DNA of 64,000 nt from an uncultured beta proteobacterium (GCA_903908065.1 CAIVQO010000081.1:18954-82953); one strand, 5' to 3'. Counted from the first letter of the stretch, positions 1 through 54,557 are shown. Made by a program: numbers and translations. The notes: generated by a model not told the origin, from the sequence alone.

Positions 1-602
1 CCGGTGGCGCGCATGGCGTAGCGGATACCGGCGATCAGGTCAGCCGCATGCTCGACCATCACGCGGTGGTCGCAGGTGAGATAGGGCTCGCATTCGCAAC
101 CGTTCACCACCAGCGTATGCACCTTGGCCTGCTTGGGCACGGAAAGCTTGGCATGGGTCGGAAAGGCAGCGCCACCGAGGCCGACCATGCCGGTATCCCA
201 GATCGCCTGCAGGATGTCCTGGCCGCTGGCCTGCGACAGATCGCGCGGCCGCCCCCAGAGATCTTCCTGCGTCGCCCCCGGATGGGCACGTATGACGATC
301 GATTCGATCCAGGTGCCGCGCATGCCGGGACGCAAACCGATGAACTCGACCACGCCCGACAGCGGGGCATGGTGCGGCACGGACAGCCATTCGTCGCTGC
401 GGGCGATGGGTTGGCCACGCACCACCTCCTGACCGACGCGCACGATGGGTCTCGGCGTCTTGCCGATGTGTTGCGACAGGGGCACTGTCACGCGGTCAGG
501 AAACGGCAGGCGGCGGATCTTGCGATCGGCCGTCAGCTTGCAGCTTGGCGGATGCACGCCGCGCTGGAAAGCTTCGCCACGAAAGTAGGAAACGAGCTTC
601 AT
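1..602 (-). CDS. rnfC: RnfC-like electron-transport subunit, N-terminal part (gene runs off the left edge)
   Basis: Absent from the ORF track because there is no stop in the window. My minus-strand translation from ATG 602-600 gives MKLVSYFRGEAFQRGVHPPSCKLTADRKIRRLPFP...IWDTGMVGLGGAAFPTHAKL...LVVNGCECEPYLTCDHRVM. This shows the RnfC N-terminal GxHPP start, the GLGGAxFPT motif and the NGxECEPYLT motif. Third codon positions look GC-rich by eye. It starts 5 nt after the stop of the upstream CDS. Confidence 0.8.
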   Translation of the reverse strand, partial: MKLVSYFRGEAFQRGVHPPSCKLTADRKIRRLPFPDRVTVPLSQHIGKTPRPIVRVGQEVVRGQPIARSDEWLSVPHHAPLSGVVEFIGLRPGMRGTWIESIVIRAHPGATQEDLWGRPRDLSQASGQDILQAIWDTGMVGLGGAAFPTHAKLSVPKQAKVHTLVVNGCECEPYLTCDHRVMVEHAADLIAGIRYAMRAT

Positions 603-607
603 CGCGA

Positions 608-3600
608 TCAGTTAAATTTGGCCGCCCTCGCTATCAGCTTTTCGACGCCCGGTTCGTTCATGTTCCAGGGCGAGCCGGGATGGATGCAGCCGGCCGTGCA
701 TTTCTCGGCGGCCTTGACGATGTCGGCGAATTTGGAGCCCTTCGGATTCACCACCACGGCCAGCTTCTGCTCGTTGTAGGCGAAGGTCTTGGGCGCCAGC
801 GTGGTGCACTCGTCGCAGGCCGTGCACTCGGGCGATTCGACCCAGACCGGCTCGTAGTCGCCGCCGCCGGCAGCAGGAATCGCCGTATCGCCAGCGCCGA
901 CTTTAGCTTCGGCCACGGCCGACTGCGCTACCGCGCCGCCCTGCCCCAACGCCGCGCTGATCTTCGCCAGCATTTCCTCCCGGACCCGGCTCTCGACCTG
1001 CTCGACATCGGCGGCATCCGCACCAGCACGCACCAGGCCGCGCAACTGACGCCAGAAGCTCAGGCGCTCTTCGGCCGACTTGATCAGTTCCTTGGTCACC
1101 AGCAGGCGCATCAGACGCTGCTTCTTGTCAACCGCCCAGATGTAGGGGAACTTGCCTTCGCGCTCGTCCTGGTCGAGTTCAAGGAACTCGGCCACCGGCA
1201 GCATGTTCTCGTTCCAGGTTTCGGGCGGCGCCTTGCGGAAATGCTTGAGGAAGCGTGCTTCGGTCGCCGCGAAATCAGCGAAGGTCATCGGCAGTTCCAT
1301 GGTCTGCGGCGCGCCGGCCTCGTCGATGTACTTGAGGGTATACATCGGCCAGTCGGTATCGGGCGAGGGATTGCCATCCAGGCTGACGCACTCGGCAAAG
1401 GTCGTGCCGGCATCCGGGTCAAAACGGAACAGCGGGTAGGCGCGGCCTTCCACGGCCAGCTTGCTCTGGTCCACGCTGCGGTCGTCGCCCACGCCATGCT
1501 CGGGCGGGCAGACTGCATAGATGTTGAACAGTGCCGGGCGGCGGCTGTTGATGCCGTCGATGTAGCTCTCGATCAGGTGATTGACGTGGGCGATGGTGCC
1601 CGACATCACGTAGGAGGTGCGGTGCGCCATGCCGATCAGGCTGATCTCCTTGCGCACTTCCTGCTTGCCGCGCTGGGCCTCGCCCCAGGGCGCCATGTCC
1701 GACACCTGGCTGATGAAGCCCGAGGTGCAGGCCTGGCCGCCGGTATTCGAATACACCTGGGTATCGACCACCAGGATCTTGATCGGCATGCCAGACATCA
1801 GGGCGCGCGACAGGTTCTGGAAGCCGATGTCATACATTGCGCCGTCGCCGCCCATCGACACCACCGGCGGGCAAAGCTGCCATTCGTCGGCAGAGAACTG
1901 CTGCCAGTGGAAGCGGCGGAAGAAGTCGTCGTCGCGGTCCGGCAGGTAGTCGCCGGCGAGTTCCTTCTCCGCCATGCGCACGGCCCTGAAGCCGTCCGCC
2001 ATCTTCGCCATGTGGCCTTCAAAGATGCCCATCGCCACCGAGGGCGAATCCTGGAACAGGTGCGAGGTCCAGGGGAAGGGATAGGGGTGGAACGGATAGG
2101 TCGAGCCCCAGACCGAGGTGCAGCCGGTGGAATTGACGATGCCCATCTCGGCACGGCCGCGTTTGCTCGGGCCCTCGACGTAACGCCACTTGAGGTCCTT
2201 CAGCTTCTCCAGCAACTGGGCGGTGTTCTTAACCCAGGCCGGGTCGAGCAGTTGCGAGGGCTTGTCGGCGTTGAGCTTGGTCGCCAGGTTGGACAGGGTC
2301 AGGTCGTGCTTGCCGGTGGAATCCACCGCGCGCACCACCGCGCTGGTGTCGGTGAGGTCCACCGCCGAGGCCAGCTTGACGCGCATGTGCTGTTCCAGGC
2401 GCTGGATCAGGTCGTCGATTTTTTCGACGAATGCGGCGACACGCGGCTGCATCAGCGCGGTGACGGTAGAGGTGAACAAGTGGATTGCGGTCTTTTCGCC
2501 ACAGCCCAGGCAGGCGCCGTCGCCGCAGTTCATCGAGCCGTAGTTGCGCTTGTCCAGCAGCAGGGTTTCCAAGGCACCAATCTTCTCGTCCAGGCTGTCG
2601 ATCCGGCTGTAGTCCTTGGGCGTGGTGGGCAGTTCCAGCCAGGTGGCCCAGTCGCGGCGCAGGCGCTCGACGGAGTCCTCGGTCTGCGTCACCATCTTCA
2701 GCGCGTTGTCCTCGCAGACCGTGACGCACAGGGCGCAGCCCTTGCAGGTGTAGGGATTGACGGTGATCGAGAACAGGCCGCCGCTGCCCTTCTGCTTTTT
2801 CTCGCGATTCGACCAGTAGGGCTTGGTCGCCGCAAACTGGAAGCCGCCGAGATGGATCTGCAATTGCGTGAATTCGGCGGCCAGCCCGGAGCGTTCGGCT
2901 TCGGGCGTGTCGGCCAGCACCTCATCCATGGCGCGATCGATCAGCGGCCGCACGAAGCCCCCTTCGTTGTCGACCAGGGCGCGTAGCTTTTTCTCGATGG
3001 CACGCGATGCCCGACGCAGGTAGCGCGTCGGCGTGCCGCCCGTCTCGATGCGGTTGATCGCGGTGTTGAGCACATCACCGACGGAACTGACCAGACCGGG
3101 GATCGCAGAATCCGGACATTCGACATAGCAATTGCCACAGGCCGTGCAGTTTTCGGCGATCCACTCCGGATGCTCGAAGCGGATGCCGGTCATGTCGCGG
3201 AACACGCCGGTAGCCGCCGGCACCAGCGACGCGCCGATGAAGGGATCGACCAGGTTGTCGTTGCCCTTGCCGGTCAGGTAGAAGTTGCCGGTCTGCTCCC
3301 AGAAGCGGTGGATGTCGCCCACCTTGCCCTGCTGCGCGCCGCCCGGCGCCGGCAGTTGGCGCAACATCACGGGCAGGCCGACGTCTTTTTTCACCGACTG
3401 CTTGCGCGTGACGCCGACTTCCTTTTCGGTGATCTCGGTCAGTTCGGTAAAGCCGCGCCGTACCACGCGCAGGTTGTCCTGCACCACGCGGGCGCCCTTG
3501 CCACCGAACTTGGACTGCAATTGGGCCTCGATCGCCGTGAACAGCGCATCCTCGGTGAGGCCGGCGTTCTGCATGGTCGGGCTGGCGGCGAAGAAAGCTC

Positions 3601-5572
3601 CCTGGAAGGCGATGCCCTGCATACGCAACTGCAGTTCGGCGGCACCGGCTTCCTCGCGCGCGATCTGGAAGGCATCGAGGTAGAAAACGCGGATTTCGTT
3701 GTCGACGATGAACTTCTGCGCCCAGAGCGGGAAGCTGGCCCAGGTCTCGGCGCCAAGGTTAGACTGGATGATGAAGAAGCCGCCCTTCTTCAGGCCGGAC
3801 AGCGGATTGCTGTGGCCGAACACCGCCGGGTCGGGCGAGAGCACGACATCGACATAGACGTATTCGCAGTTGATGCGGATCGGCTCGGGCGCGGCCGACA
3901 GGTAGTAGGTGGTCGGCTGCCCCTTCTTTTCCGAGCCGTATTTCGGGTTGGCCTTGATGTCCCAGCCGAGCAGCTCGAACAGGGTCATCGCCAGGTTCTT
4001 GCCGGTGGTGATCGCGCCCCAGCCGCCCACCGAGTGCATGCGCACGGTGATCGCGCCCTTGGGCAGGAGATTCGGGTTTTCCGAACCGCGCACTCCGAGC
4101 GCGCGGATATGCGGGTACTTGTCGGCAAGGTCCTGCTGATGTACCTCGTCCTTGGGATTCAGCGGATTACGCGCGAAGTCGATCGACAGGTAGAAAAACT
4201 TGCGTTGGCTGCCTTCGGGCAGCATGTTCTCCACCGCACCGATGAGCGCCTCCGGTTGCAGGTCGCGGCTGCCCAGGCCATAGCATCCCGAATAGAGGCG
4301 CGGCATGTCGGTCGCGGCATAGGTGGCGTAACCGGCATAGGGCGCATCCTTTTGCCCCTGCGCCACCGCCATGCCGTTCTCGACGCATTTCATCAGGGTA
4401 GCGCGCACTTCGCGCATCAGCGGCAGGTCCTCGGCCAGCGGCTGGTCGGTGCGCTCCAGCACCACGACTCCCTTCTTGCCGCGCAGCGCACGGCCCAGCA
4501 GGTCACCCGGGAAGGGACGGAACATGGTCAGATTCACCACGCCGACCTTGAGCTTGCGCGTCTCGCGCAGGTAGTCAGCCACCGCTTCGGCCTGCACGAT
4601 CATGCTGCCCATGCCGAGGATGATGTAATCGGCATCCTCGGTCTTGAAGCCCGACACGCGCTGGTAGCCACGCCCGGTCAGCCCTGCGTACTCTTCCATG
4701 CAGGCATCGGCAAGCGGCTCGACGTGATCGAAGAAGTAGGGACGCTGGCCCGCCGTGGCCTGCATGTAGGCATCCTGGTTCTGTACCGATCCGGACAACA
4801 GCGGCAGGTCCACGTCCCAGATGGCCGGCACCCGGCGACGCTTGGGGCCGTAGAGCATCTGCTGCGCCGGGGTCGGCGAATCGATCATGTCGTCGGGGCG
4901 GCCCAGGTACTCGGCCACCAGTTCGCGTTCCGGCAGCACGCAGGATTCGATCAGGTGGCTGGTGAGGAAGCCGTCCTGACCGACGATGGCCGGCGTCAGC
5001 GACAGCTCGGCAATCTTGCGCCCGATCAGGTTGAGGTCGGCCGCCTCGGTGGCGTTCTTCGCCATCATCTGGATGAAGCCGGTGTCATCGACGCAGTGGT
5101 AATCGTCGTGGCCGGCATGAACGTTCAGCGAGGCCTTGGTGATGGCTCGACAGCCCATGTTGAGCACGTAGGGCAAGCGTTTTCCGACCGCCGCGTAGAG
5201 CGACTCGTGCATGAAGGCGACGCCCTGCGCCGAAGAGAAGTTGCTGGCGCGCAGGCCGGTCATCGCCATGCCGGCGGTGACGCCGGCCGCTGCATGCTCG
5301 GATTCGGGCTCGATGAAGATCAGCGGCTTGTCGGAGATGTTGAGGTGGCCCTTGGCCACTTCCTCCGCCCAGTATTCGCCCATCTGGGTCGAGGGCGTGA
5401 TCGGATAGGCGCCGGCGGCGTCGGACGACTCCCGCTCGACATGAATCACGGCCGTATTGCCATCGACCGCATCGCGCGTACCCGGATACTTCACTTTGCG
5501 CGTTTCCACCCCGGCGCCGGTTTGCGGCAGCAGGCCGTTGGAAAACATCTTCTTGATGATCGAGAATGTCAT
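608..5572 (-). CDS. Very long PFOR-family 2-oxoacid:ferredoxin oxidoreductase with fused C-terminal ferredoxin-like domain (1654 aa)
   Basis: ORF 608..5701. Start moved to ATG 5572 (MTFSIIKKMF) because the upstream codons overlap the preceding CDS. PFOR hallmarks occur in order: GAYPITPSTQMGEYWAE; HSVGGWGAITTGKNLA; two Fe-S motifs CTACGNCYVECP and CKGCALCVTVCE; and a TPP site GGDGAMYDIGFQNL...VYSNTGGQ. An extra tail then ends in CTACDEC...CTAGCIHP. Confidence 0.9.
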   Translation of the reverse strand: MTFSIIKKMFSNGLLPQTGAGVETRKVKYPGTRDAVDGNTAVIHVERESSDAAGAYPITPSTQMGEYWAEEVAKGHLNISDKPLIFIEPESEHAAAGVTAGMAMTGLRASNFSSAQGVAFMHESLYAAVGKRLPYVLNMGCRAITKASLNVHAGHDDYHCVDDTGFIQMMAKNATEAADLNLIGRKIAELSLTPAIVGQDGFLTSHLIESCVLPERELVAEYLGRPDDMIDSPTPAQQMLYGPKRRRVPAIWDVDLPLLSGSVQNQDAYMQATAGQRPYFFDHVEPLADACMEEYAGLTGRGYQRVSGFKTEDADYIILGMGSMIVQAEAVADYLRETRKLKVGVVNLTMFRPFPGDLLGRALRGKKGVVVLERTDQPLAEDLPLMREVRATLMKCVENGMAVAQGQKDAPYAGYATYAATDMPRLYSGCYGLGSRDLQPEALIGAVENMLPEGSQRKFFYLSIDFARNPLNPKDEVHQQDLADKYPHIRALGVRGSENPNLLPKGAITVRMHSVGGWGAITTGKNLAMTLFELLGWDIKANPKYGSEKKGQPTTYYLSAAPEPIRINCEYVYVDVVLSPDPAVFGHSNPLSGLKKGGFFIIQSNLGAETWASFPLWAQKFIVDNEIRVFYLDAFQIAREEAGAAELQLRMQGIAFQGAFFAASPTMQNAGLTEDALFTAIEAQLQSKFGGKGARVVQDNLRVVRRGFTELTEITEKEVGVTRKQSVKKDVGLPVMLRQLPAPGGAQQGKVGDIHRFWEQTGNFYLTGKGNDNLVDPFIGASLVPAATGVFRDMTGIRFEHPEWIAENCTACGNCYVECPDSAIPGLVSSVGDVLNTAINRIETGGTPTRYLRRASRAIEKKLRALVDNEGGFVRPLIDRAMDEVLADTPEAERSGLAAEFTQLQIHLGGFQFAATKPYWSNREKKQKGSGGLFSITVNPYTCKGCALCVTVCEDNALKMVTQTEDSVERLRRDWATWLELPTTPKDYSRIDSLDEKIGALETLLLDKRNYGSMNCGDGACLGCGEKTAIHLFTSTVTALMQPRVAAFVEKIDDLIQRLEQHMRVKLASAVDLTDTSAVVRAVDSTGKHDLTLSNLATKLNADKPSQLLDPAWVKNTAQLLEKLKDLKWRYVEGPSKRGRAEMGIVNSTGCTSVWGSTYPFHPYPFPWTSHLFQDSPSVAMGIFEGHMAKMADGFRAVRMAEKELAGDYLPDRDDDFFRRFHWQQFSADEWQLCPPVVSMGGDGAMYDIGFQNLSRALMSGMPIKILVVDTQVYSNTGGQACTSGFISQVSDMAPWGEAQRGKQEVRKEISLIGMAHRTSYVMSGTIAHVNHLIESYIDGINSRRPALFNIYAVCPPEHGVGDDRSVDQSKLAVEGRAYPLFRFDPDAGTTFAECVSLDGNPSPDTDWPMYTLKYIDEAGAPQTMELPMTFADFAATEARFLKHFRKAPPETWNENMLPVAEFLELDQDEREGKFPYIWAVDKKQRLMRLLVTKELIKSAEERLSFWRQLRGLVRAGADAADVEQVESRVREEMLAKISAALGQGGAVAQSAVAEAKVGAGDTAIPAAGGGDYEPVWVESPECTACDECTTLAPKTFAYNEQKLAVVVNPKGSKFADIVKAAEKCTAGCIHPGSPWNMNEPGVEKLIARAAKFN

Positions 5573-5595
5573 GGCAGCTTCCTTGGATTTCGTAT

Positions 5596-6474
5596 TCAGG
5601 TGTGCAAGGGCAACGGTTCGTTGCGCAGGATCTTCTTCGCCGCCGCACCTTTCACGCTGCGGTCGGGGGACTCGAACCAGACAATGGCGCCGGTCGGACA
5701 ACGTTCAATGGGCTCGCGGGTGGCCTGGTCGTTCCAGTCGTAATTGACCACGGCGAGGTTGTTGGCCAGTTGCATCAGCTTCAGCGGCGCATCGGCCACG
5801 CACTTGCCGCAGGCGGTGCAGGCCACCTCGCAGGAAGCCTCGGCGGTGTCGCCATCCGCCTGGTTCTTGCAGGCCACCCAAAGGCGATGATTGACCGATT
5901 CGAGGCTGAACAGGCCCTTGGGGCAGACCTCGACGCAATCATTGCAGGCAGTGCATTTTTCGCTGTCCACCACCGGCAGGCCGTGCATGTCCATGTGGAT
6001 CGCATCGAAGCTGCAGACTGTGGCGCAGTCGGCAAGTCCCAGGCAGCCCCACGCGCATTCCTTGCCGCCGCCGGAGACCACGGCGGCCGCGCGGCAGGTC
6101 TTGAGCCCTTCGTAGCGCGCGCGCAAAAACGCAACGTGGCGGCCTCCGCCGCAGGCCAAACGTGCGACCTGTTTTTCGACGGTGCCGGCGGCTACGCCCA
6201 GCAGGTCGGCAATGCCTTGGCGCTGCTGCGGCGAACTGACCGTACATTTCGCCGGCACCACGTCGCCGCCAACCACCTTCTCGGCGAAATCGCGGCATCC
6301 GGCCTGGCCACAAGCGCCGCAATTTGACTTGGGCAGCAGGTCCTCGACCTGGCCAATGCGCGGGTCCTCGAAGACATAGAGTTTCTTGTTGGCGATGGCC
6401 AGCAGCAGCGCAAGCAGCACGCCCAGCGCTGCCATGAAGCCGCCTGCCACCGCAAGATTCGTCAAGGACTCCAA
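5596..6474 (-). CDS. rnfB: RnfB-like polyferredoxin (N-terminal membrane helix, CGACGxxGC motif, several 4Fe-4S motifs)
   Basis: ORF 5596..6762. Motifs: LPKSNCGACGQAGCRDFAEKV, ECAWGCLGLADCATVCSFDAI, CTACNDCVEVCP and CTACGKCV. I prefer the TTG start at 6474, which is preceded by GGGGGAGAGG and gives (M)ESLTNLAVAGGFMAALGVLLALLLAIANKK, a typical RnfB N-terminus. ATG 6537 is the alternative start. Confidence 0.8.
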   Translation of the reverse strand: MESLTNLAVAGGFMAALGVLLALLLAIANKKLYVFEDPRIGQVEDLLPKSNCGACGQAGCRDFAEKVVGGDVVPAKCTVSSPQQRQGIADLLGVAAGTVEKQVARLACGGGRHVAFLRARYEGLKTCRAAAVVSGGGKECAWGCLGLADCATVCSFDAIHMDMHGLPVVDSEKCTACNDCVEVCPKGLFSLESVNHRLWVACKNQADGDTAEASCEVACTACGKCVADAPLKLMQLANNLAVVNYDWNDQATREPIERCPTGAIVWFESPDRSVKGAAAKKILRNEPLPLHT

Positions 6475-6504
6475 ACCACCCTCTCCCCCCCAGCACGCGA
6501 ATTC

Positions 6505-6518
6505 GTTTAGATCTAAAC
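6505..6518. promoter_or_regulatory. Perfect 14-bp palindrome GTTTAGATCTAAAC in an AT-rich island just upstream of the rnfB-like start; candidate operator
   Basis: Read directly from gaattcGTTTAGATCTAAACaaaac. It lies about 30 nt upstream of the TTG start at 6474. The binding factor is unknown. Confidence 0.3.
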
Positions 6519-6822
6519 AAAACCGCAACATGAACATGGTCTTCACTACGGCCCGCTTGGCGGCGCATGCACAAACGCACGCGACCCATCGTGGTCGAGC
6601 GATCCGGGAAACGCCGGCTGCAGCCTTGAGGGCGGACACCGTCGTTTCGATCACGTCGCAGGCGGGGGTTGCTCCCGCCAGCAAGGAGGAACCGGCGCGT
6701 TGGCGCCAGTTCGGGCGTGCGCTCAGGCCATGGTTTCGACGCGAGCGCGTGTGACCGGTCAACTATAAGACCGGCGACCCTTCACACTTGATGGATATTT
6801 TTGATTTCCGTATTCGCCGAGT

Positions 6823-7677
6823 TCATTTGCCGGCCGCGCCCGGGACATGCACCCGCACCCAGTCCAACAATTCAGTCACCACGGCCTCGCGGTCCAGGTC
6901 GTTGAATGTTTCGTGGCGGCTGCCCGGCCACAGGCGGAGGGTCTTGTCGGCCCCGCGCCAGGCCTCGAAAATTTCGCGGCTGCCCGCCGGATCGGTCAGG
7001 CGGTCGCCATCGCCGTGGAACAGATACACGGGCAATTCCAGTCCTGCCGCCGCCACGCGATTGGATTCCATCGCCGCCAGCAGTTCCGCCCCGGTCCGCG
7101 CCGGCGGCGCCTTTAGGCTGACCAGCGGATCATTGACGTAGGCCGCAACCTGCGCCGGATCGCGACTGATCAAGGCCGGATCGAGCTTGGTGCCGCGCAA
7201 ATGCGGCTGCCAGCGCGAGAGCAACGGCGCCAGCGCAATCAAAAGTCGCGGCCCATCGCCGCCAATCTTCAAGGCCGCCGAGGAAAGGATCAGACCGGCC
7301 ATCGGCAGCCGACGCTGCGCCGCCCAGCGCAAGGCGATCGCACCGCCCATGCTGTGCCCCAGGAGGAACAGCGGCCTGCCCGCCGCAAGTTCCCTTGCCC
7401 GCATCCACAGCGTATCGACATCCAGCAGGTAGTCATCGAAGCGTTCGACGTAGGAGCGCTCGCCGGGCGATCGGCCGTGTCCGCGAAGATCCAGCGTGAC
7501 CACGCCGATACCCTGGGCGCAGGCTCGCTCGGCCAGCCAGGCATAGCGTCCGCCGTGTTCGGCAATGCCATGCACCACGACCATGACCGCGCTTGGCTCG
7601 ACCGGCATCCAGGACCGCGACGCCAGATCCAGCCCATCCGCTGTCGCCAGCGCGCAGCTCGTCATTTCGGACGTCAT
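6823..7677 (-). CDS. Alpha/beta hydrolase, lysophospholipase/monoacylglycerol-lipase-like
   Basis: ORF 6823..8094 trimmed to ATG 7677 (MTSEMTSCALATADG). Motifs HGIAEHGGRY and the nucleophile elbow GHSMGG. The start overlaps the upstream stop (ATGA). Confidence 0.85.
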   Translation of the reverse strand: MTSEMTSCALATADGLDLASRSWMPVEPSAVMVVVHGIAEHGGRYAWLAERACAQGIGVVTLDLRGHGRSPGERSYVERFDDYLLDVDTLWMRARELAAGRPLFLLGHSMGGAIALRWAAQRRLPMAGLILSSAALKIGGDGPRLLIALAPLLSRWQPHLRGTKLDPALISRDPAQVAAYVNDPLVSLKAPPARTGAELLAAMESNRVAAAGLELPVYLFHGDGDRLTDPAGSREIFEAWRGADKTLRLWPGSRHETFNDLDREAVVTELLDWVRVHVPGAAGK

Positions 7678-8156
7678 TTGCGCATCGCCCCTTTCGCCAC
7701 TTCGTAACAGGCATCGATGTGTGCATTGCCCAGGTAGATCATCGCCGTCACGCTCAAGGCTGCGGCGGCAGCCTGCCCGGCAAAGGGAACATACTTGAGC
7801 ACCTGTTTCGTCGCCAGTCGTGCAGCCACTTTCTTCATCGCCGCCAGCGCGAGCTTCTTGGTGATGGCGCGCCCGACCAGGTCGGCGCCCACCTTTTTCA
7901 ATGCGGCGTACACCAGAACCCGGTGATGCGTGTCGAGCGCGTCGATCTGCTCCGGGGTCAAGCCGAACTTGCGATTGATCGCCGGGATCAATTCCATCAG
8001 GATGGCCACGTCGCCGGCAAAATCGACCCCGGGCAAGGGTACCAGGGCAAGGCCGCCCGAGGTCGCGGCGCGGCGTCGGACCAGACCGTGACAAGCCTTG
8101 CGCACGCGATCGAGTTCCTCAACCGTGGCCGGCAGCAACTCGGGCGTGCGGCTCAC
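7674..8156 (-). CDS. Hypothetical protein resembling the DUF697/EcsC-type domain
   Basis: ORF 7674..8204. LVPLPGVDFAGDVAILMELIPAINRKFG resembles the DUF697 core. GTG 8156 overlaps the upstream TGA as GTGA and is my preferred start; ATG 8204 is the alternative. Confidence 0.65.
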   Translation of the reverse strand: MSRTPELLPATVEELDRVRKACHGLVRRRAATSGGLALVPLPGVDFAGDVAILMELIPAINRKFGLTPEQIDALDTHHRVLVYAALKKVGADLVGRAITKKLALAAMKKVAARLATKQVLKYVPFAGQAAAAALSVTAMIYLGNAHIDACYEVAKGAMRK

Positions 8157-8551
8157 GGCCTGCGTTTGGCATAGCGCGGATGGCCATCGCCGATCTCCCA
8201 CCACGGCGCCTTCGAATCGGTGAAGATGTGGAAGATGTCGGTGCAGATAAAAGGCGTATCCACAGTACCCAGGCGCAGCCGCAACACATTGGGGACGTCG
8301 TCCTTGGCACTGTAGATCGGGCTACCGCAGGTTTTGCAGAAGGCGCGCACCTTGTCCGGCGAGGAGCGGTATTCGTGGATCAGTTCGGCACCCGAGAGAA
8401 AGTGGAAACGGTCTTTCGCCACCGGTGCCACCGCAGCAAAGGCCGAGCCTTGTGCCTTGCGGCATTGCGAACAATGGCAGACCGAGATGTGTTCTATCGC
8501 GCCATCGTAGCGATAGCGGATCCCGCCACACAGGCAACCGCCTTCGATCAT
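8153..8551 (-). CDS. GFA-family (glutathione-dependent formaldehyde-activating / CENP-V-like) Zn-Cys protein
   Basis: ORF 8153..8683 trimmed to ATG 8551 (MIEGGCLCGGIRYRY). Motifs CLCGG, CHCSQCRK and CKTCGS. The start overlaps the upstream stop (ATGA). Confidence 0.85.
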   Translation of the reverse strand: MIEGGCLCGGIRYRYDGAIEHISVCHCSQCRKAQGSAFAAVAPVAKDRFHFLSGAELIHEYRSSPDKVRAFCKTCGSPIYSAKDDVPNVLRLRLGTVDTPFICTDIFHIFTDSKAPWWEIGDGHPRYAKRRP

Positions 8552-15979: not shown

Positions 15980-17461
15980 TCAGACCGAGCGCAACAGCGC
16001 GGTCGTACAGAGCATCATCACTTCGTTGGGGAACAGGCCCAGTCCGGCTACGGCAATGCCGTTAAGCGAGAACAGGACGCGAACATCCAGGCCGGCAGTG
16101 ATCGGAGCGGAATCAACCGGGGCATCGAAGTACATCAGCTTGACCACGCGCAGGTAATAGAACGCACCGATCAGCGAGAACATCACGGCAATCACCGCCA
16201 CCGCGACATAGCCCGCCTTGATCGCAGCGAGCAGCACGGCGAACTTGGCGAAGAAGCCGATGAAGAACGGGATGCCAGCCATCGAGAACATCATGATCAG
16301 CATCATTGCAGCGAACCAGGGGCTGCGCTTGTTGAGACCCTTGAAGTCCTCGAGGTTTTCAGCTTCGTAGCCCGCGCGCGAAAGCAGCAGGATGGCACCG
16401 AAGGCGCCCAGCGACATCAGGACGTAGGCCACCGTGTAATACAGCGCGGAACTGTAGGCGTTGGTCGCGGTAAAGGGGTCAATCTTTCCGGCGACCATGC
16501 CCGACATCAGGCCCAGCACCATGTAGCCCATGTGGGAAATCGCAGAGTAGGCCAGCATGCGCTTAAGATTGGTCTGTGCGATCGCCGCAAGGTTGCCCAA
16601 GCCGATCGACAGGACGGCCAGCACCAGCAACATTTTCTGCCAATCGGCGGCGAGTCCGAGCAGTCCGTACACCAGCAAACGCAGCGCCATGGCAAATGCC
16701 GCCAGCTTGGGTGCGGAACCGATGAACATGGTGATCGCGGTCGGCGCGCCATGATAGACATCAGGGATCCACATGTGGAAGGGCACCAGGCCCAGCTTGA
16801 AGGCGACGCCGGCGACGATGAACACCAAGCCGAACACCAACACCGTCTTCTCTGTCTGGCCCTGATACAGGGCTTGCGCAATTCCGCCCAATTCGAGGCT
16901 GCCGGTGGCACCATACACCATGGACATGCCATAGAGCAGGAGACCGGACGCGAGGGCTCCGAGCACGAAATACTTCATCGCCGCTTCGGTGCTGCGGGTG
17001 GAATCGCGATCGATGGCCACCAGACCGTAAAGCGACAGCGACATCAGCTCAAGGCCAAGGTACATAGTGATGAAGTTGGCCGCCGAGATCATGATCATCA
17101 TGCCCATCGTGGCGTAGATCACCAGCAGGTAGAACTCCCCTTTGTCCAGACCACGATCGGCAAGATACTGGCGGCTATAGACCAGCATCATCAGGACCGC
17201 AAAATAGGTCATCAGCTTGAGGAAGTCGGCAAGCATGTCGTCGATGAACATGCCGCTGAAGGTCAGCACGGGCTGCGCGTCCGAGGTCACCAGCGTGATC
17301 AGGGCAGCACCCAGCAGCGAAACGCCGGTCAGCATCGCCGCCATCCAGCGGTGGGTGGCGCCGAAGAACAGGTCCACAAACAATACCAGGAAGGACATCA
17401 GCAGGAGGAAGATCTCCGGTGCCGCCGGGTACAGATCGGGCATCACGAAATTGTTCAGCAT
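15980..17461 (-). CDS. nuoN: NADH-quinone oxidoreductase subunit N
   Basis: ORF 15980..17461. Polytopic antiporter-like sequence, last gene of the nuo operon. Confidence 0.97.
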
Positions 17462-17498
17462 CGCTTCTCTCGTGTCTTTCTTGTCGTGTGCCTTGGTA

Positions 17499-18974
17499 TC
17501 AAAGCTTGCTCACAGCAACGTGCTTGAGCAGGTTATCCACCGAGGCGTGCATCACTTCGGTGAAGGGGAAGGGATACAGGCCCATGCCCAGGACGCAGAG
17601 CGCCAACAAGGCCAGGAACAGGAATTCGCGACCGCTGATGTCCTGCATTTCGGCCACGTGATGGTTGCCGACCGGACCATAAACCACGCGCTTGATCATC
17701 CACAGCGTGTAGGCTGCCCCAAGAATCAGCGTCGTTGCGGCGAGGAAGCCCAGCCAGAAATTGGCCTTGATGGCACCCAGGATGACCATGAACTCGCCCA
17801 CGAAACCGGACGTGGCCGGCAAGCCGGAATTGGCCATGGCGAAGAAGACAAACAGGGCGGCGAACTTCGGCATGGTGTGCACCACGCCACCGTAGTCGGC
17901 GATCTGGCGCGAATGGACACGGTCGTACATGACGCCAACGCAGAGGAACATCGCGCCGGAAACGAAGCCGTGGGAAATCATCTGCACCAGGGCGCCTTCA
18001 ATGCCTAGCTGGTTGAAGATGAAGAAACCGAGTGTGACGAAACCCATGTGGGAGATCGACGAATAGGCGATCAGCTTCTTCATGTCGGTCTGCACCAGGG
18101 CGACGAAGCCGATATAGACCACGGCGATCAGCGACAGGGTGATCATGAAGTTGGCCATGTAGTGGGCGGCGTCGGGCACGATCGGCAGCGAGAACCGGAC
18201 GAAGCCGTAGGCGCCGAGCTTCAGGGCGATCGCCGCCAGGACCACCGAACCACCGGTGGGGGCCTCGACGTGGGCGTCGGGCAACCAGGTGTGCACCGGC
18301 CACATCGGAACCTTGACCGCGAAAGACACCAGGAAGGCGATGAAGATCAGGATCTGCGGCTTCATGCCGATCTGCAACTGTTGCCAGTCGAGGATGTTGA
18401 AGCTGCCACGTGACTCGAGGAAGAGCCAGAGCAGTGCAACCAGCATCAACAGCGAGCCGAGCAGCGTATAGAGGAAGAACTTGATTGCGGCATAGACACG
18501 GTTGGGACCGCCCCAGACACCAATGATGATGTACATCGGGATCAGGGATGCCTCGAAGAAGACGTAGAACAGGACGCCGTCCAGCGCGCTGAAAATGCCA
18601 TTCATGAGGCCCGACATGACGAGGAAGGCACCCATGTACTGGGCCTGCTTTTCCTCGATCACTTCCCAGCCGGCCAGCACCACCATCACGGTAATGAAGG
18701 CATTGAGGAGGATGAAGGGCATCGAAATGCCGTCCACCCCGAGGAAGTACTGCACGTTGAAGCGGGGAATCCAGGGTGCTTGCTCGACAAACTGCATACC
18801 GGCGATCTTGGGATCGAAACCGGTATAAAGTGGGATCGTTACCAAGAAGCCGGCAACGGCCACGGCCAATGCCAGCCAGCGAACCAGGCAACGACGATCG
18901 GAGCCGGCCCAGAACACCGGCAATGCCCCCAGGATGGGGACCCAGATTGCAAGACTCAGGAGTTGCTGGTTCAT
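17499..18974 (-). CDS. nuoM: NADH-quinone oxidoreductase subunit M
   Basis: ORF 17499..18974. Antiporter-like subunit ([18 protein letters not shown]), in operon order. Confidence 0.97.
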
Positions 18975-19010
18975 CTGTTTATCATTCCATCGGGCCGCAG
19001 CGGATGTGCG

Positions 19011-21050
19011 TCAGGCCCTCCAAAGCGACAGGAAGGCAACCACGCCGAAGAGCATGGCCAAGGCGTAACGATAGATGCGGCCGGACTGGATCATTCCGGT
19101 CAGTCCGGCAAACCAGCCAACCGCACCGGCCGAACCGTTGACCATGACGCCGTCGATCAGCACCTGATCGCCCGCCTTCCACAAACCACGCCCGACACCG
19201 CGCGCACCACCGGCGAAGAACCAGTCATTGAAGCGGTCGAGGCCGTACTTTTCTTCGAGAATCATGGCCGGGAAGGCAAGCTTCTGCTTGATCACGGCCG
19301 GCAAATCAGGCCGCACGATGTACAGGTACCAGGCCGTGGCCGCACCGGAAATCGCCAGCCAGAACGGCAGGGTCATGACGCCATGCGACATCATGCCGAA
19401 GATGCCGTGGAACTCATGTGCCATGGTCGCCATTGCCTTGTGCGTGTCGGCAATGCTGATGGCGCTGCCAAACCAGTTACCGTACAGCACGGTGCCAATC
19501 AGCCAGCCCGAGGCGATCGCCGGAATCGACAGCAGGATCAAGGGCACGGTGACAACCTTGGGCGACTCATGCGGCTCGACCGGTCCGTGGTGGCCATGGT
19601 CGTCATGAGCATCGTGGTGGGCGTCATGGCCGTGGCCATGGTCGCCATGATGTTCGGCGGCATGACGGAAGCGCTCGTCACCGTGGAAGGTAAAGAAAAT
19701 CAGGCGGAAGGAATACAGGCCACCGACGAACACCGCCGCCAGGGCGCAGAAATAGGCGAACCCGGCAAAGGGCACGTTGGCCAGATGCACTGCCTCGATG
19801 ATCGAATCCTTGGAGAAGAAGCCGGCAAAAGGCGGCAGGCCGGCATTGGCGATGGCGCCGATCAGCATGGTGAAATAGGTAATCGGCATGTACTTGCGCA
19901 AGCCGCCCATCTTGCGCATGTCCTGCTCATGATGCATGGCGATGATCACCGAGCCGGCGCCAAGGAAGAGCACCGCCTTGAAGAAGGCGTGGGTCATCAG
20001 GTGGAAGATCGCCACTGAGTAAGCCGAGGCACCCAGTGCCATGGTCATGTAACCAAGCTGGGACAGCGTCGAGTAGGCCACCACGCGTTTGACGTCGGTC
20101 TGCACGATCGCGATCAGCGCCATGAACAGGGTGGTGATCGCACCGACCAGAATCACGAGGGATAGCGCAGTGTCGGAGAGTTCGAACAGGGGCGACATGC
20201 GGGACACCATGAAGATGCCCGCCGTAACCATCGTTGCGGCATGGATCAGGGCGGAGATCGGGGTCGGGCCCTCCATCGAGTCGGGCAGCCAGACATGCAG
20301 CGGGAACTGCGCCGACTTGCCCATGGCGCCAATGAACAGGCAAATGCAGACGGCGGTGATCAGCGGCCAGCCGGTGACGGCCTCGGTCATGGTCGCCAGC
20401 TCCTTGGCCTTGCCGAATACGGTGACGTAGTCGAGGCTGCCGGCATACGCGGCGATAAGGCCAATACCCAGCAGGAAGCCGAAGTCGCCGACACGATTCA
20501 CGAGGAACGCCTTGAGGTTGGCGTAGATGGCGGTCTCGCGTACCGACCAGAAGCCGATCAGCAGGTAGGAGACAAGGCCCACGGCCTCCCAGCCGAAAAA
20601 CAGTTGCACGAAGTTGTTGCTCATCACGAGCATCAGCATCGAGAAGGTGAAGAGCGAGATGTAACTGAAAAAGCGCTGGTAGCTGTTGGTGCCAGCCTTG
20701 CTGCCTTCCGGCCAGTTGTCCTCGTCGTGGGCCATGTAGCCGATGGTGTAGATGTGAACCATCAGGGAGACAAAGGTGACGACCAGCATCATCAGGACGG
20801 TTAGCTGGTCGATCATGAAGCCCACTTCGAGCTTGAGACCGCCCGATTCCATCCACTGGTAAACGGTGCCGTTGAAGGTATGGCCGGCCTGCACATCCTG
20901 AAAGATGATCACAGACAGAATGAAGGAAATTGCCACACCGAGCGAGGTGACGGTATGCGCCCCGGCACGGCCGAGCACATTGGCGAAGAGTCCGGCCAGG
21001 ATGGAGCCGACCAGCGGAGCCAGGGGAACGAGTAGATAGATGGTCTTCAT
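19011..21050 (-). CDS. nuoL: NADH-quinone oxidoreductase subunit L
   Basis: ORF 19011..21050, 679 aa. Motifs [18 protein letters not shown] and [24 protein letters not shown]. Confidence 0.97.
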
Positions 21051-21063
21051 GCCCTTATGCCCC

Positions 21064-21369
21064 TTAGCCCTTCAGGCTGTCGAGGTCTTCGACATCGATC
21101 GATGACAAGTTACGGAACAGCACGACCAGGATAGCCAGGCCGATGCCTGATTCGGCAGCCGCCACGACCAGGATGAAGAAGACGAAGAGTTGGCCGGACA
21201 GGTCGTTCAGGTAATGCGAGAAGGCAACGAAATTGAGGTTTACCGCAAGGAGCATCAATTCGATGGCCATCAGCAGGACGATCAGGTTCTTCCGGTTGAG
21301 GAAGATGCCAATCACGCTGATGACGAACAGGATCGCCGCCAGGATCAGGTAATGCGAGAGCGGGATCAT
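21064..21369 (-). CDS. nuoK: NADH-quinone oxidoreductase subunit K
   Basis: ORF 21064..21369, 101 aa, three helices, in operon order. Confidence 0.97.
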
Positions 21370-21998
21370 GCCTTGTCTCCTTCCTTGGCGGATGCCGGCA
21401 ACTCGACCTCGGGTGCCATCTTGACGAGGCGCATGCGATCCTTCGCCTTGACCGCGATCTGGTCTGAAGAGTGCATCGCCTTGTTGTCCTTGCGCTTGCG
21501 CAAGGTCAGCATGACGGCAACGATGATGGCCACCAGCAGAATCACCGAAGCAATTTCAAAGGGGTAGGCAAAATCGGTGAAGAGAACTCGTGCCAGTTCC
21601 TTGGTGTTGCTGTAGTTGGCCGGCAGATTCTGCGGCGGCAGATTGGCCAGGCCAAAGTAACGACCCGACAGCACCACGGCCATTTCGGCGGCAAGCAGTC
21701 CGCCCACCAGAATGCCCAAGGGGAGGTTGCTCCAGAAACCGGCACGCACCCGTTCGATATTGATGTCCAGCATCATCACGACAAACAGGAAGAGCACCAT
21801 GACGGCGCCGACATAAACCATGACCAAGGCCAGCGAAAGGAATTCGGCCTGCAACAGCATCCACAAGCCGGCGACGTTGAAGAAGGCAAGAACCAGGAAC
21901 AGTACGGCATGCACAGGGTTGCGGGCGGTGATCACGCGCAAGGCGGCCAGGACCGTGATGGTCGAGAAGAGATAAAAAAGTATGGTCTTGAATTCCAT
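21366..21998 (-). CDS. nuoJ: NADH-quinone oxidoreductase subunit J
   Basis: ORF 21366..21998. The stop overlaps the nuoK start. Confidence 0.95.
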
Positions 21999-22015
21999 GG
22001 CCGGTTTAGCGTGGC

Positions 22016-22501: not shown

Positions 22502-22518
22502 GGTGGTCTCTCCTCGCC

Positions 22519-27256: not shown

Positions 27257-27257
27257 C

Positions 27258-27749: not shown

Positions 27750-27757
27750 TCGACGGT

Positions 27758-29603: not shown

Positions 29604-29613
29604 GTCGGTCGAT

Positions 29614-30090: not shown

Positions 30091-30112
30091 GCGCAGATAT
30101 CCCTTGTCCCGT

Positions 30113-31897: not shown

Positions 31898-32013
31898 GAT
31901 ATTCGTCTGGCTCGATCGAAAGCCCGCGATTATAGCCATTGCACTGCCTGAACGCCACACTGCGGGACGGCTTGGCCAGATCCAAGCGTCGGAATGGGCC
32001 GCCATCGTCCCGC

Positions 32014-51330: not shown

Positions 51331-54557
<3,227 letters not shown>

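What the first reader, a model, noticed from the sequence alone, without database searches (positions are those of the whole stretch)
1..6474. rnfB-like polyferredoxin, giant PFOR-ferredoxin fusion and rnfC-like gene in one tight operon
Seen in sequence: three minus-strand genes are packed with 23-nt and 5-nt gaps.
- An RnfB-like protein with one membrane helix, a CGACGxxGC motif and several 4Fe-4S motifs. This is the polyferredoxin architecture I associate with anaerobe RnfB rather than the short proteobacterial form.
- A 1654-aa PFOR-family enzyme.
- An RnfC-like gene with the GxHPP start and the NGCECEPYLT motif.

Established knowledge: proteobacterial rnf operons normally read rnfABCDGE(H), with no oxidoreductase between B and C. 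No rnfA precedes rnfB here; a hydrolase operon lies upstream instead.

Inference: this is a hard-wired module that couples 2-oxoacid oxidation, or reverse pyruvate synthesis, through ferredoxin domains to an Rnf-type ion-translocating complex. That would differ from the usual arrangement with a free-standing nifJ/ydbK.
Basis: partly seen in the sequence, partly recalled or inferred. Interest (0 to 1): 0.7.

Follow-up and report, generated by a model that had tools for sequence, protein, structure and literature searches.

The report
Pyruvate oxidoreductase built into Rnf operon
A gene for a very large pyruvate:ferredoxin-type oxidoreductase with its own tethered ferredoxin sits between rnfB and rnfC of a complete Rnf ion-pump operon; this layout is real and conserved in hundreds of bacterial species, was noted in one 2014 genome paper, and has no biochemical test that I could find.

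Summary
On the minus strand lie rnfB (5596-6474, 292 aa), a 1654-aa PFOR-family gene (608-5572) and the 5' part of rnfC (1-602). The gaps are 23 nt and 5 nt.

The PFOR keeps every catalytic signature I checked. It also carries about 450 extra residues: helical insertions and a C-terminal single-cluster ferredoxin domain on a disordered linker. RnfB is the anaerobe-type polyferredoxin.

In 80 related genome loci from beta-, gamma- and alphaproteobacteria:
- rnfB is directly upstream in 73 of 75 testable loci.
- rnfC is directly downstream in 66 of 66.
- rnfCDGEA follows in order in 57 of 57.

The order also holds in relatives at 25-35% identity (Calditrichota, Gemmatimonadota and unnamed metagenome contigs). 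There the PFOR-like protein has often lost its TPP-binding and proximal-cluster residues but kept its two-cluster ferredoxin domain.

A dedicated PFOR-Rnf module (2-oxoacid, ferredoxin domains, Rnf, NAD(H), ion gradient) is therefore well supported genetically. A physical complex is untested.

The gene order is common, and Dmytrenko et al. 2014 had already noted it. I found no biochemical study. Filed as a new member of a known kind; interest is moderate.

The parts
1..602 (-). 5' part (200 codons) of rnfC. The gene runs off the left edge of the window.
   Evidence: RnfC_N and Complex1_51K. TIGR01945 rnfC scores 179.7 bits for the fragment. The full-length 456-aa homologue in L048 scores 467.7 against a cutoff of 245.95. 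On the contig with the identical PFOR it is followed by rnfD, G, E and A.
608..5572 (-). Long-form PFOR-family 2-oxoacid:ferredoxin oxidoreductase, 1654 aa, catalytically intact by sequence.
   Evidence: All signature residues are present: YPITPS, ESEH, CRA, CLGCGE, GC(T)S, GGDG and YSNTGGQ.
4736..5422 (-). PFOR domain I (POR_N, residues 51-279).
   Evidence: PF01855, 5.6e-44.
4385..4633 (-). PFOR domain II (PFOR_II, residues 314-396).
   Evidence: PF17147, 2.4e-14.
3449..4027 (-). PFOR domain III (POR, residues 516-708).
   Evidence: PF01558, 5.7e-27.
2678..3187 (-). Ferredoxin domain V (residues 796-965): two CxxCxxCxxxCP motifs split by a helical insertion of about 110 residues.
   Evidence: Cys 809, 812, 815, 819 and 943, 946, 949, 953 are invariant in alignment A1 and are kept in 66 of 70 family representatives. 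The insertion is modelled as a confident helical bundle.
1388..2530 (-). TPP-binding domain VI (residues 1015-1395), with the proximal-cluster Cys and a helical insertion of about 110 residues.
   Evidence: TPP_enzyme_C; motifs; the best Foldseek match is M. thermoacetica PFOR.
953..1390 (-). Family-specific C-terminal extension (residues 1395-1540).
   Evidence: No counterpart in the solved PFORs (alignment). Modelled with high confidence.
863..961 (-). Ala/Gly-rich flexible linker (residues 1538-1570).
   Evidence: Sequence. pLDDT is about 30 over fragment residues 759-791.
611..862 (-). Tethered C-terminal single-cluster ferredoxin domain (Fer4_13, residues 1571-1654).
   Evidence: PF13370, 4.3e-07. 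Cys 1583, 1586, 1589 and 1625 are conserved in the part of the family that has this domain. pLDDT is 81-91.
5596..6474 (-). rnfB, 292 aa from a TTG start: N-terminal membrane helix, FeS domain and four further [4Fe-4S] Cys sets (anaerobe-type polyferredoxin).
   Evidence: It aligns over its full length to A. woodii RnfB (9eri_B, 3.2e-49) and C. tetanomorphum RnfB (7zc6_B). The start codon is supported by N-terminal conservation.
6475..6822 (.). 348-nt upstream intergenic region, the presumed promoter and 5' UTR of the operon. It contains the perfect palindrome GTTTAGATCTAAAC at 6505-6518.
   Evidence: No sigma-70 consensus match was found. The palindrome is conserved only in the closest relatives.

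Best explanation
This is the promoter-proximal part of a seven-gene operon, rnfB-por-rnfC-rnfD-rnfG-rnfE-rnfA, in a Sulfuritalea-like member of the Rhodocyclales. It encodes an Rnf-type ion-translocating ferredoxin:NAD+ oxidoreductase together with its own dedicated 2-oxoacid (most likely pyruvate):ferredoxin oxidoreductase.

Proposed electron path (inferred):
1. TPP.
2. The proximal [4Fe-4S] cluster.
3. The two clusters of PFOR domain V.
4. The C-terminal ferredoxin domain, swinging on its flexible linker.
5. The RnfB polyferredoxin.
6. The Rnf membrane core.
7. The RnfC flavin, and finally NAD+.

Net reaction: pyruvate + CoA + NAD+ gives acetyl-CoA + CO2 + NADH, plus exported H+ or Na+. This amounts to an oxygen-independent, energy-conserving substitute for pyruvate dehydrogenase.

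The chain is reversible. With NADH and ion-motive force it could drive pyruvate synthesis from acetyl-CoA and CO2.

Shown:
- gene identities;
- completeness of the operon;
- an intact catalytic signature;
- the tethered ferredoxin domain;
- deep conservation of the gene order.

Inferred:
- the substrate;
- the direction of electron flow;
- direct electron hand-over to RnfB;
- ion coupling.
For: Operon completeness:
- The contig with the identical PFOR reads rnfB, PFOR, rnfC, rnfD, rnfG, rnfE, rnfA.
- In the nearest genome locus, L048, RnfC, D, E and A pass their TIGR subfamily cutoffs. RnfB passes TIGR01944 in the window itself.

Synteny in 80 genome loci (66-93% PFOR identity; Rhodocyclales, Rhodoferax, Hydrogenophilales, Thiobacillus, Gallionella/Sideroxydans, Sedimenticola, Thiothrix, Ectothiorhodospiraceae):
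- rnfB is directly upstream in 73 of 75 (72 by script, plus L026 by inspection).
- rnfC is directly downstream in 66 of 66.
- rnfCDGEA follows in order in 57 of 57.

Deeper conservation:
- The same order appears in all five intact distant loci examined (L081-L085), often with overlapping stop and start codons.

The enzyme:
- All TPP, substrate and cluster residues are kept in the window protein. GGDG, SNTGGQ and C.GCGE are present in all 74 testable relatives, and YPITPS in 73 of 74.
- The fold matches PFOR.
- The ferredoxin domain sits behind a disordered linker.

RnfB:
- It is of the multi-cluster anaerobe type that accepts ferredoxin.

Pseudoenzyme pattern in degenerate relatives:
- Conservation is lost in the TPP region (ratio 0.41) and in domain III (0.55).
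- It is retained in the ferredoxin domain and in the family-specific insertions (0.9-1.18).
- This argues that the protein has a role tied to Rnf beyond soluble catalysis.

Thermodynamics (established knowledge): the couple acetyl-CoA+CO2/pyruvate lies near -500 mV and NAD+/NADH at -320 mV, which leaves about 35 kJ/mol for ion pumping.
Against: - No experiment was found on this module (10 literature searches).
- Solved Rnf structures show no bound PFOR.
- The PFOR-to-rnfC spacing reaches 600-800 nt in some Sedimenticola loci, so tight translational coupling is not universal.
- Exceptions exist: L077 has the PFOR without rnf, and in L042 (Rhodoblastus) rnfB lies downstream.
- The protein fails the NCBIfam pyruvate:ferredoxin oxidoreductase equivalog cutoff (376.6 vs 911.35), so pyruvate specificity is not established.
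- rnfD to rnfA lie outside the window. I know them only from a contig for which no DNA could be fetched, and from relatives.
Confidence: 0.72

Rival explanations
1. Co-regulation only. The PFOR is an ordinary soluble enzyme that reduces a free ferredoxin or flavodoxin pool. It sits in the rnf operon merely so that both are expressed under the same (anoxic) conditions. There is no dedicated electron hand-over and no complex.
For: - PFORs are known as soluble dimers, and the best structural match is a soluble PFOR.
- Variable and sometimes long PFOR-to-rnfC gaps.
- A plant-type FNR-like gene follows rnfA in a subset of loci, which suggests that a diffusible ferredoxin pool is also served.
Against: - The position between rnfB and rnfC is kept across phyla, rather than at an operon end.
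- The ferredoxin domain is fused to the enzyme.
- Catalytically dead but full-length PFOR-like proteins are retained in the same slot. This is hard to explain if the only link were co-expression of an enzyme.
Confidence: 0.2
2. A reverse-mode module for nitrogen fixation or CO2 fixation. Rnf uses NADH and ion-motive force to reduce ferredoxin. The PFOR acts mainly as a pyruvate synthase, or, like NifJ, as a second source of low-potential electrons for nitrogenase.
For: - Many host taxa are diazotrophic or lithoautotrophic, for example Gallionellaceae, Sideroxydans, Thiobacillus, Sedimenticola and Rhodocyclus.
- Rnf is classically linked to nitrogenase (PMC10734462; PMC5178258).
- PFOR chemistry is reversible (established knowledge).
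Against: - No nif genes appear among the neighbours listed for the identical contig or for L081-L087.
- None appears among the roughly 30 window genes I annotated.
- Gallionellaceae without nifDHK still carry Rnf (PMC10734462).
- The module also occurs in Calditrichota, Gemmatimonadota and Leptospiraceae.
- Direction cannot be read from sequence.
Confidence: 0.3
3. The RnfC-like gene is a stand-alone PduS/NuoF-type protein, and the cluster is not an Rnf operon at all.
For: Within the window, only the first 200 codons of rnfC are visible.
Against: - rnfD, G, E and A follow on the contig that encodes the identical PFOR.
- They also follow in 57 of 57 related loci with enough flank.
Confidence: 0.01

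Closest known systems
rnf2 operon (rnfB-PFOR-rnfCDGEA) of the Solemya velum gill symbiont (Dmytrenko et al. 2014, PMC4287430)
   Same: The description matches: an rnfBCDGEA-type operon with pyruvate:ferredoxin oxidoreductase genes between rnfB and rnfC. The authors drew the same inference, that pyruvate is an electron donor for that Rnf complex.
   Different: A different host (a gammaproteobacterial symbiont versus a Sulfuritalea-like betaproteobacterium). That paper gives one sentence, with no protein anatomy, distribution or experiment. I could not fetch that genome to confirm that its PFOR belongs to the same long family (inferred).
Rnf complexes of Acetobacterium woodii and Clostridium tetanomorphum (PDB 9eri, 7zc6)
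   Same: - Six-subunit ferredoxin:NAD+ oxidoreductase.
- RnfB aligns over its full length with the multi-cluster polyferredoxin subunits (3e-49).
- RnfC, D, E and A meet the subfamily cutoffs in L048.
   Different: - Those operons read rnfCDGEAB and have no oxidoreductase gene inside.
- Their ferredoxin is a free protein.
- No partner enzyme is seen in the structures.
Homodimeric PFOR (NifJ/YdbK type; D. africanus 1b0p, M. thermoacetica 6cin)
   Same: - Domains I, II, III, V and VI, in the same order.
- All TPP, substrate and three-cluster residues.
- The fold match.
   Different: - About 450 residues longer: insertions between domains I/II and II/III, inside the ferredoxin domain and inside domain VI, a roughly 140-residue C-terminal extension, and a tethered fourth-cluster ferredoxin domain.
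- Only 376.6 bits against the TIGR02176 cutoff of 911.35.
- Encoded inside an rnf operon rather than standing alone.
Chlorobi/Bacteroidetes-type rnfBCDGEA operon (Reyes-Prieto et al. 2014, PMC4014512)
   Same: rnfB comes first and rnfA last. This differs from the proteobacterial rnfABCDGE order.
   Different: As described there, the operon has no gene between rnfB and rnfC. Caldithrix abyssi rnfBCDGEA is six consecutive genes (PMC5317091).
Pyruvate:NADP+ oxidoreductase (PNO) of Euglena and Cryptosporidium (from my own knowledge, not tested here)
   Same: The concept is the same: a PFOR hard-wired to its downstream electron acceptor, so that pyruvate oxidation ends in a pyridine nucleotide.
   Different: PNO is a single polypeptide fused to a flavoprotein reductase. 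It is soluble and has no ion translocation. Here the link is a tethered ferredoxin plus a separate membrane pump.

Membership tests
Rnf complex (RnfABCDGE-type ferredoxin:NAD+ oxidoreductase) | Genes for all six subunits (B, C, D, G, E, A) encoded together | tested here: met
   The contig with the identical PFOR carries genes with FeS/Fer4, RnfC_N+Complex1_51K, NQR2_RnfD_RnfE, FMN_bind and two Rnf-Nqr families, in that order. Only B and part of C lie inside the window.
Rnf complex (RnfABCDGE-type ferredoxin:NAD+ oxidoreductase) | RnfB reaches the curated rnfB subfamily score | tested here: met
   TIGR01944 scores 74.8 against a cutoff of 68.7. It aligns over its full length to solved RnfB chains.
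Rnf complex (RnfABCDGE-type ferredoxin:NAD+ oxidoreductase) | RnfC, RnfD, RnfE and RnfA reach the curated subfamily scores | tested here: met
   Tested on the nearest genome locus, L048 (93% PFOR identity): C 467.7 vs 245.95, D 271.1 vs 207.05, E 223.9 vs 213.4, A 243.8 vs 229.3. The window's own RnfC fragment is truncated and scores 179.7.
Rnf complex (RnfABCDGE-type ferredoxin:NAD+ oxidoreductase) | RnfG reaches the curated subfamily score | tested here: inconclusive
   The L048 RnfG scores 87.2 against a cutoff of 102. An FMN_bind domain is present.
Rnf complex (RnfABCDGE-type ferredoxin:NAD+ oxidoreductase) | Ferredoxin:NAD+ oxidoreductase activity coupled to Na+ or H+ translocation | not testable with these tools
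   This needs membrane biochemistry.
Pyruvate:ferredoxin (flavodoxin) oxidoreductase, NifJ/YdbK equivalog (TIGR02176) | Whole-protein score at or above the curated equivalog cutoff | tested here: not met
   376.6 bits against a cutoff of 911.35, matched in three stretches. I therefore file it as PFOR-family, not as a NifJ equivalog.
2-oxoacid:ferredoxin oxidoreductase (OFOR) superfamily, catalytically competent member | TPP-binding GDG...N motif, the TPP-activating Glu, the substrate Thr and Arg, four Cys of the proximal cluster, and eight Cys of the ferredoxin domain | tested here: met
   T59, P60, E91, R142, C1021, C1024, E1026, C1151, G1242-D-G1244, N1276, G1278, Q1280, C1282, and C809-C819 / C943-C953 are all present.
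2-oxoacid:ferredoxin oxidoreductase (OFOR) superfamily, catalytically competent member | Domain IV (EKR) recognisable | tested here: inconclusive
   No PF10371 hit at E<=0.01. Residues 769-834 do align to the corresponding region of M. thermoacetica PFOR.
2-oxoacid:ferredoxin oxidoreductase (OFOR) superfamily, catalytically competent member | Pyruvate as the substrate | not testable with these tools
   The best profile matches are pyruvate enzymes, and the residues that bind the substrate carboxylate and keto group are kept. Specificity needs an assay.
rnfB-PFOR-rnfCDGEA operon type (as noted for the S. velum symbiont rnf2) | A long PFOR gene located between rnfB and rnfC, with rnfDGEA downstream | tested here: met
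Canonical proteobacterial rnfABCDGE(H)/rsx operon | rnfA comes first, rnfB and rnfC are adjacent, and RnfB/RsxB is short (about 190 aa) | tested here: not met
   - rnfB is first and rnfA last.
- RsxB equivalog models score 79 and 32 bits against cutoffs of 203 and 281.
- Only the N-terminus aligns to A. vinelandii RnfB.
Na+-NQR (nqrABCDEF) | An NqrF subunit in place of RnfB; NqrA lacks the NADH/FMN site | tested here: not met
   - RnfB is present.
- RnfC carries Complex1_51K.
- All nqr models score far below their cutoffs.
- The FNR-like gene after rnfA is a separate plant-type FNR homologue.

The most novel reading that the evidence does not exclude
The long PFOR(-like) protein is not just co-expressed. 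It is a stably bound seventh subunit that defines a distinct subclass of Rnf complexes.

In the window's clade, the assembly would be a membrane-bound, ion-pumping pyruvate:NAD+ oxidoreductase. The tethered ferredoxin domain and the family-specific helical insertions would dock onto RnfB or RnfC.

In Calditrichota, Latescibacterota, Krumholzibacteria and related lineages, the same subunit has become a pseudoenzyme. There it would serve only as an iron-sulfur adaptor between Rnf and adjacent KorAB-type oxidoreductases.
Probability: 0.35. Interest if true: 0.8.

Novelty: new member of a known kind. Interest (0 to 1): 0.5.

Why it matters
Rnf is usually pictured as exchanging electrons with a free ferredoxin pool. 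This operon type points instead to a dedicated input enzyme. It would turn pyruvate oxidation into NADH plus ion-motive force without oxygen, or run in reverse to make pyruvate.

The module occurs in many environmentally important iron-, sulfur- and hydrogen-oxidising and phototrophic Proteobacteria. In some of these, the role of Rnf is explicitly called unknown: Gallionellaceae (PMC10734462) and Allochromatium (PMC3368242). For lithoautotrophs that must otherwise make NADH by costly reverse electron flow, such a module could matter for their energy budget.

In other phyla, catalytically dead PFOR-like proteins are retained in the same operon slot. This suggests an unrecognised accessory subunit of Rnf and gives a concrete target for co-purification and cryo-EM.

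Tried and rejected
- **Leftward extension.** The exact-protein look-up found the identical PFOR on a 28-kb contig, but no DNA could be fetched. I used its gene table and the nearest genome locus, L048, instead.
- **Representative search.** I used the C-terminal 875 aa.
- **Regulatory motifs upstream of rnfB.**
  - No sigma-70 consensus match in 1-8200.
  - Scans of 75 upstream regions for an FNR box, a sigma-54 promoter and the local palindrome gave no consistent signal.
  - The palindrome is shared only with the closest relatives.
  - A TTGTTCCAyrTCAA-like motif recurs in some Sulfuritalea-like loci but not in the window.
  - I draw no regulatory conclusion.
- **Literature (all 10 searches used).**
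  - I found no biochemical or structural study of a PFOR-Rnf unit.
  - The Accumulibacter PFOR is a different, three-gene enzyme (PMC5148189).
  - The D. toluolica-type Rnf with a large RnfB is unrelated (PMC5109826).
  - Caldithrix abyssi rnfBCDGEA has no inserted gene.
  - The T. maritima 'supercomplex' is Rnf with ATP synthase.
- **KorAB adjacency.** It occurs in the distant loci L081-L086 but in none of L001-L080. It is therefore not part of the window's module.
- **NqrF analogy.** I considered it for the FNR-like gene after rnfA and rejected it. That gene is a plant-type FNR homologue, separated from rnfA by about 200 nt and present only in a subset of loci.

Full report
**1. Observation**

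The minus strand of window 1-6474 carries three tightly packed genes.

- **rnfB, 5596-6474.** It encodes a protein with an N-terminal hydrophobic helix and the PF04060 FeS domain (CGACGQAGC...C). Sixteen further cysteines follow, arranged as four [4Fe-4S]-type sets. It passes the NCBIfam rnfB subfamily cutoff (74.8 vs 68.7). It aligns over its full length to the solved RnfB subunits of Acetobacterium woodii (9eri_B, 3.2e-49) and Clostridium tetanomorphum (7zc6_B). Only its N-terminus aligns to the short Azotobacter RnfB.
- **rnfB start codon.** The 13 residues upstream of the ATG used in a public gene call (279 aa) are conserved as protein in most of the 20 related loci inspected. In many of them the conserved stretch begins with Met at that position.
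- **PFOR-family gene, 608-5572 (1654 aa).** It starts 23 nt downstream of rnfB.
- **rnfC, 602 downward.** It starts 5 nt after the PFOR stop, with ...GVHPP... and NGCECEPYLT, and carries RnfC_N and Complex1_51K. It runs off the window edge.
- **Upstream of rnfB.** There is a 348-nt intergenic region. Beyond it lie one alpha/beta hydrolase and a 176-aa ORF without Pfam hits.

**2. Is it a real Rnf operon?**

Yes. The identical PFOR sequence occurs on a 28-kb public contig. Its gene table reads: hydrolase | rnfB, PFOR, rnfC (456 aa), rnfD, rnfG (FMN_bind), rnfE, rnfA | FNR-family gene.

In the nearest genome locus (L048, a Sulfuritalea sp. MAG, 93% PFOR identity), RnfC, D, E and A exceed their TIGR subfamily cutoffs. 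RnfG falls slightly short (87 vs 102).

**3. Anatomy of the PFOR**

Pfam finds POR_N, PFOR_II, POR, two Fer4 motifs, TPP_enzyme_C and a C-terminal Fer4_13. Against solved PFORs the match is significant but broken into six pieces by insertions (6cin, 2e-80). The protein does not reach the NifJ-type equivalog cutoff (376.6 vs 911.35).

All residues that define a working enzyme are present:
- the YPITPS Thr, the ESEH Glu and the CRA Arg;
- the C-x2-C-G-E and GC(T)S cysteines of the proximal cluster;
- the GGDG...YSNTGGQ TPP/Mg site;
- both CxxCxxCxxxCP motifs.

An AlphaFold2 model of residues 780-1654 (44-sequence alignment, mean pLDDT 81, pTM 0.83) shows:
- confident helical insertions inside the ferredoxin domain and, with lower confidence in part, inside domain VI;
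- a folded C-terminal extension;
- a disordered Ala/Gly-rich segment (residues 1538-1570, pLDDT about 30);
- a well-folded small ferredoxin domain after that segment.

Foldseek returns Moorella PFOR as the best match (1e-17). 'Giant PFOR-ferredoxin fusion' is an accurate description, and the ferredoxin looks tethered rather than rigidly packed.

**4. Distribution and synteny**

The organism is a Sulfuritalea-like member of the Rhodocyclales. I examined the best 80 (66-93% identity).

They include Sulfuritalea, Sulfurisoma, Rhodocyclus tenuis, Methyloversatilis, Dechloromonas, Rhodoferax, Hydrogenophilales, Thiobacillus, Gallionella, Sideroxydans, Sedimenticola, Thiothrix, Ca. Venteria, Ectothiorhodospiraceae and the alphaproteobacterium Rhodoblastus.

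| Feature | Loci with the feature / testable loci |
|---|---|
| rnfB directly upstream | 72/75 by script; 73/75 after inspecting L026 |
| rnfC directly downstream | 66/66 |
| rnfCDGEA in order | 57/57 |
| Catalytic motifs intact | 74/74 (YPITPS in 73/74) |

There are two exceptions: Rhodoblastus (L042) has rnfB downstream, and L077 has the PFOR without rnf.

**5. Deeper relatives**

An exhaustive profile-free search with the C-terminal 875 aa found 1420 clusters (at 50% identity) with E<1e-30. Many are full-length proteins of 1500-1700 aa at only 25-50% identity.

Gene context was recovered for seven of them.
- Five show rnfB, PFOR-like, rnfCDGEA, often with overlapping stop and start codons (L081-L085).
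- One, from Latescibacterota, has a truncated rnfC (L086).
- One, from Methylococcaceae, is interrupted by IS1 (L087).

Source labels place family members in Calditrichota, Cloacimonetes, Krumholzibacteria, Latescibacterota, Rhodothermales, Gemmatimonadota, Leptospiraceae and Propionibacteriaceae.

Of the 70 full-length representatives, only about six keep the full catalytic signature. The window protein also keeps it. In contrast, 66 of the 70 keep all eight ferredoxin-domain cysteines.

In the 56 clearly degenerate representatives, conservation relative to intact members behaves as follows:
- it collapses in the TPP region (ratio 0.41);
- it falls in domain III (0.55) and domain I (0.72);
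- it is unchanged in the ferredoxin domain, domain IV and the family-specific insertions (0.9-1.18).

In the distant loci, the Rnf subunits remain 38-68% identical to the window type, while the PFOR-like protein is only 28-33% identical. These loci carry an adjacent two-subunit KorAB-type oxidoreductase and further paralogues of the PFOR C-terminal half. None of L001-L080 does.

The window protein thus belongs to the catalytically intact clade of a family whose common denominator is residence in an rnf operon plus a two-cluster ferredoxin domain.

**6. Mechanism**

*Shown:* a complete Rnf gene set, an intact OFOR active-site signature, a fourth tethered cluster domain, a multi-cluster RnfB, and deep conservation of the B-POR-C order.

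*Established knowledge:* PFOR passes electrons from TPP through three [4Fe-4S] clusters to ferredoxin. RnfB is the ferredoxin-side entry of Rnf and RnfC is the NAD(H) side. The potential gap between pyruvate/acetyl-CoA+CO2 (about -500 mV) and NAD+/NADH (-320 mV) can drive ion export.

*Inferred:*
- The tethered ferredoxin domain shuttles electrons from the distal PFOR cluster to RnfB. The module would then act as an energy-conserving pyruvate:NAD+ oxidoreductase under anoxic or microoxic conditions, and reversibly as an NADH- and gradient-driven pyruvate synthase.
- I lean slightly towards oxidation as the main direction. These CBB-type autotrophs and facultative anaerobes must convert pyruvate to acetyl-CoA without oxygen-dependent constraints, and they would profit from NADH that otherwise requires reverse electron flow. 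Sequence cannot decide this.
- The retention of dead PFOR-like proteins in the same slot elsewhere is my strongest argument that the protein associates with Rnf rather than merely being co-expressed. I put stable physical association at about 0.35-0.4.

**7. Comparison with what is known**

The proteobacterial textbook operon is rnfABCDGE(H). The rnfBCDGEA order is described for Chlorobi/Bacteroidetes (PMC4014512).

Other genome papers on carrier taxa mention Rnf without noticing the arrangement, and some call its role unknown:
- Gallionellaceae, PMC10734462;
- Allochromatium, PMC3368242;
- Dechloromonas, PMC2907700.

A 2025 review of Rnf/Nqr does not mention PFOR and gave no passage describing a partner enzyme inside an rnf operon (PMC12174285). 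I found no biochemical, genetic or structural study. Public annotations call the intact proteins '2-oxoacid:acceptor oxidoreductase family protein' and the degenerate ones 'hypothetical' or '4Fe-4S binding protein'.

**8. Verdict**

The window's operon is a new member of a known, uncharacterised operon type. This makes a bound accessory subunit a testable hypothesis.

Interest is 0.5.

Noticed in passing
L081:8001-12944, L082:8001-12785, L083:8001-12623, L084:8001-12734 (also P0122, P0128, P0151 and others): Full-length (1500-1650 aa) PFOR-like proteins sit between rnfB and rnfC but have lost the TPP-binding GDG/YSNTGGQ motifs, YPITPS and, in many of them, the proximal-cluster Cys. They keep both ferredoxin-domain Cys motifs. 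These are apparent pseudoenzymes retained inside intact rnf operons, annotated publicly as 'hypothetical' or '4Fe-4S binding protein'.
   Followed up: partly
L083:4618-7155, L084:2750-7132, L086:4446-7049; L026:921-5612: Additional large paralogues of the C-terminal half of the long PFOR (or, in L026, of nearly the whole protein). In the L083, L084 and L086 loci they lie next to korAB-like genes just upstream of rnfB. L026 carries a second long PFOR-like gene about 4 kb upstream of rnfB.
   Followed up: partly
Left of the window; L048:19801-20658 (285 aa), about 200 nt after rnfA: A plant-type ferredoxin-NADP+ reductase-like gene (PetH model, 125 bits, below cutoff) follows rnfA. This occurs on the contig with the identical PFOR and in a subset of loci (Sulfuritalea, Sulfurisoma, Rhodoferax, Rhodoblastus, Sedimenticola, Thiothrix). 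It suggests a parallel ferredoxin-to-NADPH outlet.
   Followed up: partly
window 6505-6518: A perfect 14-bp palindrome, GTTTAGATCTAAAC, lies 31-44 nt upstream of the rnfB TTG start. It is conserved with 1-3 changes only in the closest relatives (L038, L048, L004). It may be an operator; no regulator is assigned.
   Followed up: partly
window 6435-6474: The public gene call for rnfB (279 aa, ATG at 6435) looks 13 codons too short. The TTG at 6474, preceded by a GGAGAGGG Shine-Dalgarno-like run, matches the conserved N-terminus of homologues and completes the membrane helix.
   Followed up: yes
L087:13053-13810; L086:12580-13102: The operon has decayed in some lineages. In a Methylococcaceae contig, IS1 transposase genes directly follow the degenerate PFOR-like gene. 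In a complete Latescibacterota genome, rnfC is truncated to 174 aa and rnfDGEA are absent.
   Followed up: no
Upstream of rnfB in L004, L005, L013, L015, L020, L027 and L073 (about -130 to -175 nt): A recurrent FNR/Dnr-like motif, TTGTTCCAyrTCAA, is found upstream of rnfB in several Sulfuritalea-like loci. It is not found in the window's own upstream region.
   Followed up: no
window 7674-8204 (-): A 176-aa ORF with coding-like GC3 (0.77) and no Pfam hit. Its stop overlaps the start of the alpha/beta hydrolase gene (6823-7677) by 4 nt, so the two are probably co-transcribed.
   Followed up: no
window about 15980-30487 (-); also 31842-33851, 47385-49265, 51327-55714, 58282-63053: The rest of the window looks like ordinary chromosome:
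- a nuo (complex I) operon (NuoG-like at 23592-26078, antiporter-like subunit at 15980-17461);
- a succinate dehydrogenase/fumarate reductase flavoprotein;
- FtsH;
- a carbamoyl-phosphate synthase large subunit (51327-54557) with an adjacent 384-aa ORF (54560-55714) that I did not annotate;
- RecN-like, NAD kinase and ferrochelatase genes.

No nif genes were seen among the genes I annotated.
   Followed up: partly
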